Both the position numbers and the translations under genes were made by a program. DNA of 63,874 nt, filler included, from Kipferlia bialata (lineage: Eukaryota): the NCBI GenBank assembly GCA_003568945.1. It is 6 parts of 6 records of this genome, joined end to end, with 100 filler letters (N's around TTAATTAATTAA, not from the genome) between each part and the next. Parts side by side here need not be neighbours in the genome. Positions count along the whole stretch, not along the records: positions 53,326 to 63,874 come from BDIP01001408.1; 5 more parts are not named here. One strand, 5' to 3'. This document shows, in pieces, positions 55,788-61,218 of the stretch. Numbering within the stretch: the first letter of the stretch is position 1; every line of letters begins with the position of its first letter. Below the pieces are notes generated by a model. The model was not told the origin of the DNA. It did no database searches and worked only from the letters and a program-made list of their open reading frames with translations.

Positions 55788-56557
55788 ACAGAGAGAGAGA
55801 GAGAGAGGGAGACTGTCTGGTATTATGGGTCTAGAGAGAGAGATGGAGAGAGAGGTCGTTCCTAGGACCAGAGAAGGTCGTGTAGAGAGAGGCTGAGGGG
55901 TTGTCGACCCCCTCGTGTAGTTAGAGAGAGAGAGTAGTGCATTATCCCGGGCACATTGGGTGTTCCCTTTTGTTGTTGTAGTTCTTTTGTTTAGCAGGTT
56001 GTTCAGTCTCAGAGAGAGAGAGAGGCTGGAGTTGGGTATATCTGATATGGTATGCCGACAATCTGCCTTGTTAAGTGTCTTGTGTTGCCGAATGCGTGTA
56101 TCAAATAGACAAGGGAGTGTTCACAATTGTTCATATAGTTTCTCGTACACATCTATAGCTATGCAACTAATGTCGCTGACACCTCTGTTCGTGGCCATTC
56201 CACCTGGTACGTAACATGAACTACCATATTACACAGGATTGTAATAATATCAAAGTTCAAAAATGTCGAGCCTAACACGACAGAGAGTATGGATCATACT
56301 AGTAAGAATCCTCATCATAGTTACTATGAATCAGATTCATTGTAGTGTAGGAAAGATCCCAGGAGCACAGTTTGGCCTACCCCTGGGGACTTGTTTCACC
56401 ACAAACCAAATACATTTCTGTACTTCGCTACTGTACATATTCCATCACTCATTTACTGGTACATATATTCAATACCACTGGTACGGATGCCCGAATTGGG
56501 TGGGTATAGATAGATCACTTGCAGAAACTCTAATCAACTACACCCCGTAGTCATTGC

Positions 56558-59500
56558 CTAGTTCCTCCTCCTACCGTTCCGTCTCCCTCTACGGCAGATG
56601 TCCGGCTGTGAAGCAGGCTTGGGACCAGCCCTGTGCCACTTCTGCTCCTTCCGTCTCTTCTGATCCTGATAGTACCTCATCTTCTCCTCTTCGTTCTCAA
56701 ACAACACCCCGAAAGAGTACTGTCCCCTTCTGTAGCCTTGGCGGATGAAGAAGGGTTCGTCGAGAATCTTCGTCTTGTCTGCCTCACTCTTCAAGTTGAC
56801 AATGACCTTGGAGTCCTTGTAGGAGAAGTATACGCTCTTGGGCTTAACCCCACACACGTTTCCCATCTTTTTGCGTATAGCCTCCTCCGTGAGACCCATA
56901 CCTGAACGCCGCTCGACACTGGGTCTTGGATAACCGACGTATCTGACCCTGCGTTAGTATCAATTGCGCGTCACAACAGAGGATTTGCAATTATCTAGGA
57001 CATGTACCCACCTGTATCCCATTCTGATCAGGTCCTCTCTCATATCCTTGGCATTCGATATGTCACGAGAAAAGACAAGCGAGGTCTTGGGGATGTCCTA
57101 CACGTTAGACAGGTATGCTGGAGTATATAGTGAGACTCATTATATATCATTATAATAATGAGTGACGTGGGAAAGAGGTTGTGAGCAGGAAGGAAGAGGG
57201 GAATCACGCGGGAAACAGCATGGAATGGTCTGTGGTATATCACCTGGACTCTGACATACTATGATATTCTAACAAATAATATGAATCATAGTCTATGATA
57301 TACTGTGATATGTTATATCACCTGTACTCTGGTTGGGGCCCCACTAAGTATATATATAGTATATATATATAGTATATAGTGTGTATATTACACTATATAA
57401 ATATCACCTGGACTGTGGTTGGGGGCCCACTAAGTANNNNNNNNNNNNNNNNNNNNNNNNNNNNNNNNNNNNNNNNNNNNNNNNNNNNNNNNNNNNNNNG
57501 TATATATATAGTATATAGTAAACTATATATATATTATGTATATTACACTATATATATCACCTGGACTGTGGTTGGGGGCCCATCCACTAGGTAGGTGTAG
57601 GGGTTAGGCAGGCCAGTCAGGTCACAGAGCTCAAGGGTCTGAGGGTTGGGCCTTGGGGTAAGTACTAATCCAAGGAGGTACACATACATGAGACTAAGTA
57701 CAGCATTCTCTTGTACCTGAATACACAAGGATCCCTGTCGGGGTCTACTCTGTAGTCCGGCACTGGGTATGCTAGGGGAGCCTGTCGGTGAGACACGATA
57801 CTCTAGAGTAACGTATTCACCTCATATCCATAACGAAACTATCAATTACTGGTGAGAAAATGTATTGGTGAGACATTAGGACAGTAAAGTATAGAGTAGA
57901 ATCAATAACCCTCATTCCATTTACACATATCAAGATATTACAATGTGTAGGAAGTGTACCTGGTTCTCAGCAGAATCATTGGAGCAGGGTACAAAGTATA
58001 GCCTTCCGGTATCAGCTGTCCCCTGGTTGTCTATGTCCGAATGTCCCTGGCCATAAGTGCAACAAACCACTTGAGCGTTAAGTGAAATAGTTGATGGAGT
58101 GGATTCAACCTGCTCAGTGAGTCTGGCAAAGCTCTCGCGGAGCTCAGTGTCGTCCAGGGTGAGGAAGGTGTAACCCTGATCCCTGTTGACACCCTCTGTC
58201 TCACTCTCATCTCCACCACACGTCATATCCCCAGCCTCATTGCCAGGTTGAGGAGCGGGCTCAAGTACCACGTCCATAGCAAGGCCCGTGAATACAACGG
58301 GAGAGCCCAGAGACTCAGAGGTAGCGCCAAACTCTCTCCCCTTTCCCCTGTCGCTATCCAGCTCCACTTGGCCTTCTGACACACATACCCCTGCTGGCAC
58401 AGTGGCCTCTGCAAAGTAGTGCATGTGTGCAGCCCACCAGTGTGCCTGAGAGTGAGTGATGACACACTAATTGACTATATGAAATGAGTGTATGAGTATA
58501 CCAGTCATATATCATGTGGGCGGCCACCAGAGTGTCTGGGAGTGAGTGAATATTGATTTTAAAGATAGTACTTCAAGTAAAGAGACTCTGTGGAGCCCAA
58601 ATGAAGGATACAACGATATGGTATGATATTTCGACAGTAATATACTGAGTATGCGTTTGTAATTGGACTTGCCTCGCCAATGACCGGAATAGCACCACTT
58701 GTGATGTCTGTGAGTAGACCGGTAGAGAGTGGCGAACCCTGCTCTCCTGCGCATTTCTCGTGCTGGGAGTTAATATGTTCATCAGTAAATACGTTAACAT
58801 GTTTAGAGATCAGTACTCAGGCTAAACTGTATAATTATAGAATAGTTAACAGGATTTGTTATTTAAATAATGTGAATACTATATATACATATGTATATAT
58901 GTATATATATATATATATACAATGGCTACCTTAGGAATGTACACAAAGTGCTCGTTGGGAGTGGTGACGATTGTGGGCCTGTCGTAAAAAGGTGTATTGG
59001 ATTTGCATCACAACATGACTATAGGAGATAGATTAGACACATACCAGTCGTGAGTGAGTACAGTTGTCTTCAGCTGGGGCTGTCTACTGAGCGTGTGTCT
59101 GAGGGGGTCTACCTCTGCCCTCCTGTGGTGGAAGCAGGATTCAATACTGCCCTGATTCGTGAGAATATACAATAGAATTATAAATATTTACATAACTTTT
59201 GTATATTCATGTATATACATGGCATTACCGAGAGACACACACACATATATATACCAACAAGAATATAGTACCGGGGCTGTAACAGGCTCCATGTACGTAG
59301 AGTGAGTTGAGAGATTGGGGCAAATACACTGTAACATCTGAATGACCTAGCCTTCATAATAGAGTAGTATTGAGTACCTGGTCAAACTGGGTGGGATTGT
59401 AGTCTCTCTCTTCCTTGGCACTGCTGGCATCGTAGATACCACTGATACCAGCCACTCTCAGGTGCCTATCACCCAGGACAAAGTCTACTGCCCCAACACG

Positions 59501-60357
59501 GCCTGGGTGAGATATCAATAGAATAGTATCATTACACTGTAAGTAATTATACTAATTTGAGTAGTTCATGAAAATCTACTGCCCCAACGCGGCCTAGGTG
59601 AGAAGAGATATGATAAATAGGGGTAAAGGAGGGACATGATCACGTACCCATGTAGTACACGTTGTGTGCAATCTCATTGTATTATACTATTCACTATGCA
59701 TTACATACTATGTAACATAGCCCTACCCATGTAGTACACGTTGTGTGCAATGTACCCCCCGTATGGCAGCTCCTCTAAGTAGAGAGAGGCCTCGTGGTTG
59801 CCACCCACGTAGATGACGGGGACAGGCATAACGAGAGTACCTGGGTGTTAGTGGATGTGCATACATACTAAATGTATACAAATATATGAATATGTACATA
59901 TAGAGAGAGAGAGATGACAGGGACAGGCATGACTATGGAACCTGGGTGTTAGTGGATGTGCATACATACTAAATTTATACAAATATATGAATATGTACAT
60001 ATAGAGAGAGAGATGACAGAGACAGGCATGACTATGGAACCTGGGTGTTAGTGGATGTGCATATACACTAAATTTATACAAATATATGAATATGTACATA
60101 TAGAGAGAGAGATGACAGGGACAGGCATGACTAGGGTACCTGGGAGTTAGTAGATGCCTATATATAAAGAGAGAGAGAGAGTTCCGATATCAGATCACAG
60201 GTACAGGCATGACTATGGAACCTGACTGTTAGTGGATATATATATGTACATCTATATATATATATATTAGCATTGAGAGAGAGAGAGATAAATATAAGGG
60301 ATGATAAATGACGGGGACAGTCATGACTAGTACCTGGGAGTCAGTATACATCTGATA

Positions 60358-60393
<36 letters not shown>

Positions 60394-61037
60394 TTATATA
60401 TTTATAGAGAGAGAGGGAGAGATGTTGACGACGATAAATGTCAGGGTTAGGCAGGAGTACCTGGGAGTTGGCAGAGTATTTACATATATATACATATATA
60501 CATATATGGAGAGAGGGAGAGAGTTCTTCAGATGACGGACCGTCACCATGGCGGTACATATATATGACAAGGAAACCTGGAAGATAGGTTCGGAGAGAGA
60601 GAGTTGGAGTAATGTATACGGTATATACATGCACTGTCTATACAGTATATATACCCCGGTTAAGACCTGAGAAGGAAACCTATAAGTTACTAGATGACCA
60701 CATATATTGAAATAGAGAGACATGGAGAAGACTAGATAGTATCTTACTATTGGTATGTAAGTAGATGAGGAGAGAGTAAGATGTACCTATACCGCATATT
60801 GTTAATGTAGGAGGTTGTCTTACCATTCAAGAGGCCTTGGAAGGAGTTCATGTTCTTTCTGAGCTCATCAGAGAACTGTGTGAGCGCCAATACTGTTATA
60901 TATGTGATGTACATATATATACTACTAAGTACATATATAACATGTAGTAGTGTAAACATAGTAAATGGCCAGCGCACAGGATAAAAATGTCACTCACCCT
61001 CGGAGGCATGCGTCCGAACTGGATACCGAACTTATCC
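56558..61037 (-). CDS. DBR1: Lariat debranching enzyme DBR1 with in-frame C-terminal RRM/xRRM-like extension; N-terminal motifs missing
   Basis: MNSFQGLLNG|TLVMPVPVIYVGGNHEASLYLEELPYGGYIAHNVYYMG; RVAGISGIY; VLTHDW; QGSP; HWWAAHMH; C-terminal PNPQTLELC. All are DBR1 hallmark motifs, in order. Confidence 0.9.
59841..60140. repeat. ~100-bp near-identical tandem repeat x3 (intronic spacer + acceptor + DBR1 exon-head echo)
   Basis: Unit ctgggtgttagtggatgtgcatacatactaaa...gatgacagggacaggcatgactatggaac read three times. Confidence 0.9.
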
Positions 61038-61218
61038 CTTTGAGTAAGACAGATAATGGGAAAATGAATAGGAGAGAGAGAGGAGGACTTATAGTGCAAG
61101 ACAGATAAGTTGGCGGTGGAAAGGGGGAGGGGGGGGGGGGGGGGGGAAACCCCCCCCGGGGGGGGAAAGGGAGAGAGAGAGAGAGAGAGAGAGAGAAGGA
61201 GCAGAAGAAGGTACTCAC

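What the first reader, a model, noticed from the sequence alone, without database searches (positions are those of the whole stretch)
56558..57652. DBR1 fused in frame to an xRRM-like domain
Seen: after the DBR1 C-terminal motif (RPNPQTLELCDLTGLPNPY...TTVQ, phase 0), phase-compatible exons continue DIPKTSLVFSRD...MGYR|YVGYPRP...LTEEAIRKKMGNVCGVKPKSVYFSYKDSKVIVNLKSEADKTKIL...FGVLFENEEEKMRYYQDQKRRKEQKW. Inference: this is an RRM fold with an acidic/aromatic terminal helix like the xRRM of La RRM2/LARP7/p65. Known DBR1 proteins typically have a disordered tail or none. An extra RNA-binding module on the debranching enzyme is notable in a genome with decoy-laden lariats.
Basis: partly seen in the sequence, partly recalled or inferred. 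Interest (0 to 1): 0.7.

Follow-up and report, generated by a model that had tools for sequence, protein, structure and literature searches.

The report
Debranching enzyme with RRM-like tail
In the free-living protist Kipferlia, the transcript of the enzyme that opens spliced-out intron loops runs on in frame into an extra 158-residue tail with no detectable relatives, which is predicted (weakly) to fold like an RNA-binding domain and would likely help hold the enzyme on its RNA targets.

Summary
The fusion is real; the 'xRRM' label is not established. One spliced contig of run X1 joins the DBR1 exon ending ...TTVQ (57561) to 57097, then 57012 to 56948, in frame. The tail (residues 616-773 of KIPB_005815, Kipferlia bialata) is an orphan: HMMER over 1.84 billion representatives found only itself; Pfam gives no RRM. 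Low-confidence models (pLDDT 60 and 49) together give an RRM-like order of strands and helices plus a long terminal helix. RRMs are common among weak structural neighbours (TM 0.44-0.51; Z 3.1-3.8), but nothing is significant and no La/LARP7 xRRM stands out. The acidic-then-aromatic helix is present; the defining beta3 arginine is absent and Y-x-D looks out of register. Best reading: a lineage-specific, atypical RRM-like appendage that likely tethers DBR1 to lariat RNA or the spent spliceosome. The database model also wrongly fuses an upstream Suf/CstF-77-like gene onto DBR1. New variant of a known kind; moderate interest, limited by one species and a weak fold call.

The parts
60824..60875 (-). 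DBR1 exon (P0001 residues 244-261). A further small exon lies at about 61037-60998; the N-terminal exons of DBR1 could not be placed in the window
   Evidence: alignment to Entamoeba Dbr1 starts at P0001 residue 241
59727..59840 (-). DBR1 exon with the GNHE metallophosphoesterase motif (59802-59791)
   Evidence: RNA contig piece 244-355
58673..59502 (-). four DBR1 core exons (59502-59378, 59151-59045, 58978-58930, 58762-58673), including the HDW motif; followed by a GC-AG intron 58672-58446
57717..58445 (-). three DBR1 exons (58445-58110, 58046-57960, 57781-57717): HMH motif (58427-58419), then an acidic, likely disordered insert of about 135 residues
57561..57651 (-). last DBR1-like exon (NPQT motif at 57647-57636), phase-0 donor at 57560
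   Evidence: joints
57098..57560 (-). 463-nt intron joining DBR1 to the tail; holds an assembly gap (57437-57499) and three partial copies of the donor (near 57419, 57333, 57255), all beyond the gap
   Evidence: joint 57096/57560
57012..57097 (-). first tail exon (residues 616-644): predicted strand plus helix ahead of the RRM-like core
56699..56947 (-). predicted RRM-like (ferredoxin-like) core, residues 645-727: b1 645-650, a1 665-676, b2 683-688, b3 691-696, a2 699-707, b4' 711-717, b4 720-726
   Evidence: low-confidence models; weak structural neighbours
56630..56695 (-). predicted terminal helix a3 (residues 729-750): acidic start, YY, then basic
   Evidence: helix 730-750 in both models
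56558..56629 (-). basic, likely disordered C-terminus and stop codon; inferred nuclear-localisation-type or RNA-contact stretch
   Evidence: sequence; 9 K/R against 1 D/E in residues 749-773
56442..56557 (-). 3' untranslated region covered by the same RNA contig
   Evidence: record 2, piece 1392-1897

Best explanation
Kipferlia DBR1 is transcribed and spliced as one mRNA whose reading frame continues past the usual end of the enzyme into a 158-residue tail; the tail's core is predicted to be an atypical RRM-like domain capped by a long basic helix, and it likely works as a tether that holds the enzyme on intron lariats or on the spent spliceosome. Shown: the splice junctions and the open frame; the DBR1 identity of the upstream part; the absence of RNP1, RNP2 and the xRRM arginine; the absence of detectable relatives. 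Inferred: that the protein is made, that the tail folds as an RRM with helix 3 over the sheet, that it contacts RNA through its basic helix and end rather than through an xRRM guanine pocket, and that this does the job of the disordered human tail, which tethers DBR1 to the spliceosome.
For: Fusion: joints 57096/57560 and 56947/57011 in one 1897-nt contig, with no depth in the intron bin 57150-57419. The exon chain gives one 530-codon frame identical to P0001 244-773. Donor copies beyond the N gap tie the two sides together as DNA. DBR1: phmmer E 4.4e-16 to Entamoeba Dbr1; GNHE, HDW, HMH, NPQT present. Fold: element order. In the Atlas's independent model, 4 of 10 listed neighbours align on a Pfam RRM family in each of two ranges (TM by query 0.40-0.51). 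12 of 50 VIA rows are titled RRM or RNA-binding domain, Z 3.1-3.5. Charge: core 17 K/R against 9 D/E. Precedent for tethering: human DBR1 binds C19L1 and is predicted to bind SYF1 through tail peptides (PMC13736545, section 8). No peptide-I-like motif was found in Kipferlia DBR1 (best score reached by 549 of 1000 shuffles).
Against: Both AlphaFold2 models are single-sequence and weak (pLDDT 59.8 and 49.3), and they disagree on a2 and b4'. Foldseek found nothing at E <= 0.001 for either. The best VIA matches were MutS/MSH2 chains (Z 5.3-5.7), above every RRM and below the level the tool calls meaningful. All Atlas rows are under its naming bar, include non-RNA-binding SecD/SecF domains, and the search by features gave no usable hit. 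A FoldIndex-type score for the core is borderline (-0.04). With no homolog there is no sign of selection on the tail. The RNA evidence is one run, as contigs, listed as the same sample and only guessed to be RNA. A shared fold would not show RNA binding.
Confidence: 0.5

Rival explanations
1. The tail is a true xRRM taken from a La or LARP7 gene and binds a structured RNA (hairpin or bulge) on the side of its sheet, as p65 and LARP7 do.
For: No RNP1/RNP2; a basic residue in b1 (R646); a hydrophobic residue at the b4-a3 turn; an acidic start and aromatic pair in a3; a basic extension (against the features in 10.1101/739532 section 7). The p65 xRRM appears in the Foldseek list (4erd_A, rank 15, 98 columns) and a 7SK core RNP chain in the VIA list (7slq_B, Z 3.8). 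Human La RRM2 also lacks the b3 arginine (PMC5175362, passages).
Against: b3 has Asn where the arginine should be; the triplet in register is Y684-F-S686 (register inferred from a weak model); YY not YW. The p65 row has E 0.68 and rmsd 11 A; the 7SK row has rmsd 5.9 A and ties with unrelated folds. Pfam reports no RRM family at E <= 10. There is no La module in the gene.
Confidence: 0.13
2. The tail is a captured LINE ORF1-type non-canonical RRM (exonised retrotransposon), kept as a general RNA chaperone or simply tolerated.
For: A DUF4283 cluster is among the Atlas neighbours and is one of the few rows that also covers a3 (residues 644-742, TM 0.50). DUF4283 marks plant LINE ORF1 (PMC5203782, passages). 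ORF1 exonisation into host genes is documented (PMC12129022, abstract). The whole core lies in one terminal exon. The b1 pattern resembles ORF1-type RRMs (recalled, not tested).
Against: The Atlas score is under the naming bar. There is no paralog in the window or among 1.84 billion representatives, no Transposase_22 or DUF4283 hit in Pfam, and no reverse transcriptase sequence was seen next to it.
Confidence: 0.12
3. The tail is a folded alpha/beta domain that binds a protein partner (a spliceosome or localisation factor), not RNA.
For: RNP1, RNP2 and the xRRM pocket residues are all missing. Some RRMs with a helix over the sheet bind protein instead of RNA (PMC5175362, passage). The human tail works through protein contacts. 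Non-RNA-binding look-alikes (SecD/SecF, NID, EpsL/PulL) score as well as RRMs.
Against: The domain, helix and end are strongly basic; no partner is identified.
Confidence: 0.17
4. The tail is a fast-evolving, mostly unstructured or dispensable extension (or a minor read-through into a neighbouring gene), and the RRM look is a modelling artefact.
For: Low model confidence, no homologs, and known DBR1 tails are divergent (PMC12238851, passage) and dispensable in vitro. Without splicing the frame ends six codons after TTVQ.
Against: Alternating hydrophobic strands and amphipathic helices recur in two predictors. The only isoform seen is the spliced fusion, and no extra contig depth suggests a separate start or intron retention, although contigs drop rare forms.
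Confidence: 0.08

Closest known systems
RNA lariat debranching enzyme Dbr1 (Entamoeba histolytica structures 5uki/4peh; human DBR1)
   Same: Metallophosphoesterase core with GNHE, HD and HxH motifs; E 4.4e-16 over P0001 241-431.
   Different: Entamoeba Dbr1 ends after about 50 residues of helices and human DBR1 has a disordered tail. Kipferlia has an acidic insert of about 135 residues before NPQT and a basic, predicted folded 158-residue tail after it, with no peptide-I-like motif.
xRRM of Tetrahymena p65, human LARP7 and S. pombe Pof8; La RRM2
   Same: Predicted b1-a1-b2-b3-a2-b4'-b4-a3 order, no RNP1/RNP2, basic residue in b1, acidic-then-aromatic a3.
   Different: No b3 arginine, RNP3 Asp apparently out of register, YY for YW, no La module, no significant sequence or structure match.
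Non-canonical RRMs of LINE ORF1 proteins (DUF4283 and related)
   Same: Weak structural neighbour that includes the terminal helix.
   Different: Single copy as far as could be searched, no sequence match, no element context.

Membership tests
Dbr1 lariat debranching enzyme | Sequence similarity to solved Dbr1 over the metallophosphoesterase domain | tested here: met
   phmmer E 4.4e-16, top 5 of 8 rows are Dbr1. Pfam itself reported neither Metallophos nor DBR1 for P0001.
Dbr1 lariat debranching enzyme | GNHE, HD and HxH metal-binding motifs | tested here: met
   GNHE 274, HDW 374, HMH 429, aligned to Entamoeba Dbr1
Dbr1 lariat debranching enzyme | N-terminal motifs, including the Dbr1-specific Cys | not testable with these tools
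   Not found in the window; the RNA contig has 188 nt upstream of 60875 whose letters were not shown
Dbr1 lariat debranching enzyme | 2'-5' phosphodiesterase activity | not testable with these tools
   needs an assay
xRRM (p65/LARP7/Pof8) | RRM core fold b1-a1-b2-b3-a2-b4 | tested here: inconclusive
   Order of elements fits; RRM neighbours are frequent but weak; nothing significant
xRRM (p65/LARP7/Pof8) | RNP1 and RNP2 absent | tested here: met
   no match to either consensus (consensus)
xRRM (p65/LARP7/Pof8) | Extra helix a3 after b4 with acidic start followed by aromatic residues | tested here: met
   helix 730-750 in both models; EEE then YY
xRRM (p65/LARP7/Pof8) | a3 lies across the beta-sheet | not testable with these tools
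xRRM (p65/LARP7/Pof8) | Y-W pair in the second turn of a3 | tested here: not met
   Y736-Y737; no [YF]W in residues 244-773. The change is conservative.
xRRM (p65/LARP7/Pof8) | RNP3 (Y/W)-x-D on b2 | tested here: inconclusive
   Y687-K-D689 lies at the end of b2 and in the turn; by the inferred hairpin register the equivalent triplet is Y684-F-S686. The register rests on a pLDDT-60 model.
xRRM (p65/LARP7/Pof8) | Conserved Arg on b3 | tested here: not met
   b3 is KVIVNL, with no Arg in it or 9-15 residues after Y687
xRRM (p65/LARP7/Pof8) | Binds paired and unpaired RNA on the side of the sheet | not testable with these tools
   needs binding and structural data
La / LARP7 proteins | N-terminal La module (La motif plus RRM1) | tested here: not met
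   the upstream exons on the same RNA contig encode Dbr1; no La family in Pfam
LINE ORF1-type RRM | Sequence match to Transposase_22 or DUF4283, or a multicopy element context | tested here: inconclusive
   no Pfam hit and no paralog in the window; one weak structural row; whole genome not held

The most novel reading that the evidence does not exclude
Kipferlia, an intron-rich fornicate with a reduced or highly diverged spliceosome, has replaced the peptide tethers that dock DBR1 on C19L1 and SYF1 with a built-in xRRM-like domain that recognises lariat or snRNA structure directly. This would be the first debranching enzyme with its own folded RNA-binding module, and an xRRM-type architecture outside La/LARP7 proteins.
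Probability: 0.2. Interest if true: 0.7.

Novelty: new variant of a known kind. Interest (0 to 1): 0.42.

Why it matters
DBR1 is the only known debranching enzyme, and how it reaches the buried branch point has only just been explained in humans, through short peptides in a disordered tail. A natural DBR1 with a folded, basic appendage in that position would be an alternative solution to the same recruitment problem, and a small, testable construct. I found no report of a DBR1-RRM fusion in two full-text searches, but I could not survey DBR1 architectures across eukaryotes. The weight is limited by a single species, no sign of conservation and an unproven fold. A practical gain: the public model KIPB_005815 is likely a chimera, labelled as a Suf protein, that hides this organism's DBR1.

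Tried and rejected
Homolog searches for the tail found only P0001 or nothing: longer proteins, 1 of 57 candidates; near length, 0 of 19; residues 233-773, 1 of 7995 scored (which also failed to return any other DBR1, so it is no survey of architectures); HMMER over 1.84 billion representatives, self only; metagenome scans, 0 of 277 and 0 of 198 pattern matches. Pfam, NCBIfam, PHROGs and PDB sequence searches gave nothing meaningful for the tail; the weak Ubiquitin_2 and DNA_pol3_a_NII rows are under cut-off and were rejected. The 158-residue model was too poor to search with. The MutS/MSH2 matches (Z up to 5.7, rmsd near 4.7 A) were rejected as a common alpha/beta arrangement from an incomplete model. 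La and LARP7 RRM families were not among the rows listed by the Atlas (10 of the 30 nearest shown), which does not exclude them. No La or LARP7 sequence was on hand, so no direct pairwise or profile comparison was made. An internal duplication in the tail was tested and not supported (55 of 1000 shuffles). A human peptide-I-like motif was not found. A misjoin at the N gap was rejected. A real Suf-DBR1 fusion was rejected (see Noticed in passing). The scoring of SYF1 and AQR as absent from Kipferlia (PMC6679479 supplement 10) was not used as support, because CDC5L, PRP19 and the U5 116K protein are scored absent as well, which points to missed detection. No run on record as RNA was listed. No whole genome is held. 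The 5' end of the DBR1 contig remains unplaced. Two look-ups of earlier findings returned nothing.

Full report
Setting. The finding lies on the minus strand of the last contig of the window. A search with the last exon returned one protein, P0001, 100% identical, which a source names KIPB_005815 of Kipferlia bialata. The genome paper reports about 125,000 introns, an AUGUSTUS annotation and a fragmented assembly (PMC5874029, passages).

1. The observation. The decisive check is run X1. It is listed only as a guess at RNA and as the same sample, but it behaves as cDNA, with joints at GT-AG boundaries and no depth in intron bin 57150-57419. One contig (record 2, 1897 nt, depth 22.5) carries the GNHE exon, the later DBR1 exons and the last exon down to 56442. 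The joints 57650/57716, 57096/57560 and 56947/57011 are listed, the last two with 86 letters on the shorter side. A 12-exon chain from 60875 to 56442, anchored on the first displayed piece, predicts 5 of 5 other displayed piece starts and the total length exactly, and gives one open frame of 530 codons equal to P0001 244-773. Expected depth matches 12 of 14 bins tested; 58500-58769 and 60930-61199 hold more than the chain explains. The intron in question has an N gap, but three partial copies of the DBR1 donor lie beyond the gap, so the DNA is contiguous too. The RNA uses the acceptor at 56949, adding V-R before YVGYP. Limits: one run, contigs only, probably not independent of the annotation; rare isoforms would be lost; translation is not shown.

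2. The enzyme. P0001 241-431 matches Entamoeba Dbr1 at E 4.4e-16, with GNHE, HDW, HMH and NPQT in order. The N-terminal motifs are not in the window. The RNA contig has 188 nt upstream of 60875, close to the roughly 180 nt that the Entamoeba alignment requires, so the true protein is inferred to be about 590 residues. The first 232 residues of P0001 match Pfam Suf and sit on a different RNA contig with depth 193, about 1450 nt of which have no place after 61219. The database fusion of Suf to DBR1 is therefore likely an assembly or prediction artefact, unlike the tail.

3. The tail. Residues 616-773 have no detectable relative and no family hit. Single-sequence AlphaFold2 of the last exon (pLDDT 59.8) gives a-b-b-a-b-b-a; the 158-residue run (pLDDT 49.3) adds a strand at 645-650 and a strand-helix unit at 621-640, but loses a2. 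Together this is the order b1-a1-b2-b3-a2-b4'-b4-a3. The Atlas's own model gives neighbours that align to 643-727: 4 of 10 rows on a Pfam RRM family, a fifth in an RRM cluster, plus NID, DUF4283, two SecD/SecF rows and one unnamed; TM by query is 0.44-0.51 and all are under the naming bar (similar). VIA lists 12 of 50 rows titled RRM or RNA-binding domain at Z 3.1-3.5, and PARN and a 7SK RNP chain at 3.8, but MSH2/MutS rank above them (Z 5.3 and 4.9) and none reaches Z 8. Foldseek has nothing at E <= 0.001; p65 is rank 15 with E 0.68 and rmsd 11 A. I put an RRM-like fold at about 65%.

4. xRRM or not. The class is defined by the absence of RNP1/RNP2, a helix a3 across the sheet, (Y/W)-x-D on b2, an Arg on b3, and charged or aromatic residues late in a3 (10.1101/739532, passages and section 7; PMC5175362, passages; their alignment figures were not visible). 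The tail has the helix-docking features: R646 in b1, L726/F727 at the turn, EEE then YY. It lacks the guanine-reading features. b3 is KVIVNL, with no Arg. If the hairpin turns at 689-690, Y684 faces N695 and the triplet is Y-F-S, while Y687-K-D689 points to the core side and the turn (register inferred from a weak model). It may therefore be built like an xRRM but should not be filed as one.

5. Mechanism. In humans the disordered DBR1 tail carries two peptides: one binds C19L1 and is needed for rescue in cells, the other is predicted to bind SYF1 (PMC13736545, section 8 and passages; its peptide alignment figure was not visible). Entamoeba Dbr1 lacks such a tail (PMC10470207, passages), and the C-terminal region is divergent across species (PMC12238851, passages). 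Kipferlia DBR1 has no peptide-I-like motif by pattern or score and carries a basic, predicted folded domain at that position. The most likely role is a tether that raises the enzyme's local concentration on lariat RNA or the spent spliceosome through the basic helix and end. Only the fusion and the motif content are shown; folding, binding and tethering are inferred (overall 0.5). Rivals: protein-binding domain (0.17), true xRRM (0.13), captured LINE ORF1 RRM (0.12; PMC5203782 passages; PMC12129022 abstract), unstructured or dispensable extension (0.08).

6. Novelty and verdict. Two full-text searches for a DBR1-RRM fusion gave nothing relevant (listings, plus passages of PMC3090354), but I could not survey DBR1 architectures, and the other paper searches were seen as listings only. 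This is a real, transcript-supported architectural variant of a known enzyme in one species, with an unproven fold and no evidence of conservation. Observation confirmed; interpretation partly supported; new variant of a known kind; interest 0.42.

Noticed in passing
window 63749-61219 (minus) and the C/G run near 61190-61110: A Suf/CstF-77-like gene is joined to DBR1 in the database model P0001, but its exons lie on a separate RNA contig (depth 193 against 22.5) whose remaining ~1450 nt have no place here. A likely misjoin at the low-complexity run removes the 3' part of that gene and the 5' end of DBR1.
   Followed up: partly
window 58672-58446 (minus): A GC-AG intron in DBR1, consistent with the RNA contig's piece offsets.
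   Followed up: yes
window 60823-59841, 59726-59503, 58672-58446, 57560-57098: Partial copies of neighbouring exon edges and splice sites in 4 of 12 DBR1 introns; the RNA contig skips them. Similar copies are visible in the upstream gene.
   Followed up: partly
window about 58380-57730 (minus; P0001 446-580): An acidic insert of about 135 residues (29 D/E against 9 K/R) between the HMH motif and NPQT, transcribed in the same contig; it may be a disordered, acidic counterpart to the basic tail.
   Followed up: no
window 57097-57012 (minus): The first tail exon encodes a predicted strand-helix unit (621-640) ahead of the RRM-like core; it could be a linker, an extra element of the domain or an alternative b1-a1.
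   Followed up: partly
window 60930-61199: RNA depth implies about 94 covered bases where only a 40-nt exon is evident; unexplained.
   Followed up: no
window below 56118: A neighbouring transcript (record 1, depth 162) ends at 56118, about 320 nt from the end of the DBR1 contig; it appears to be a convergent plus-strand gene and was not identified.
   Followed up: no
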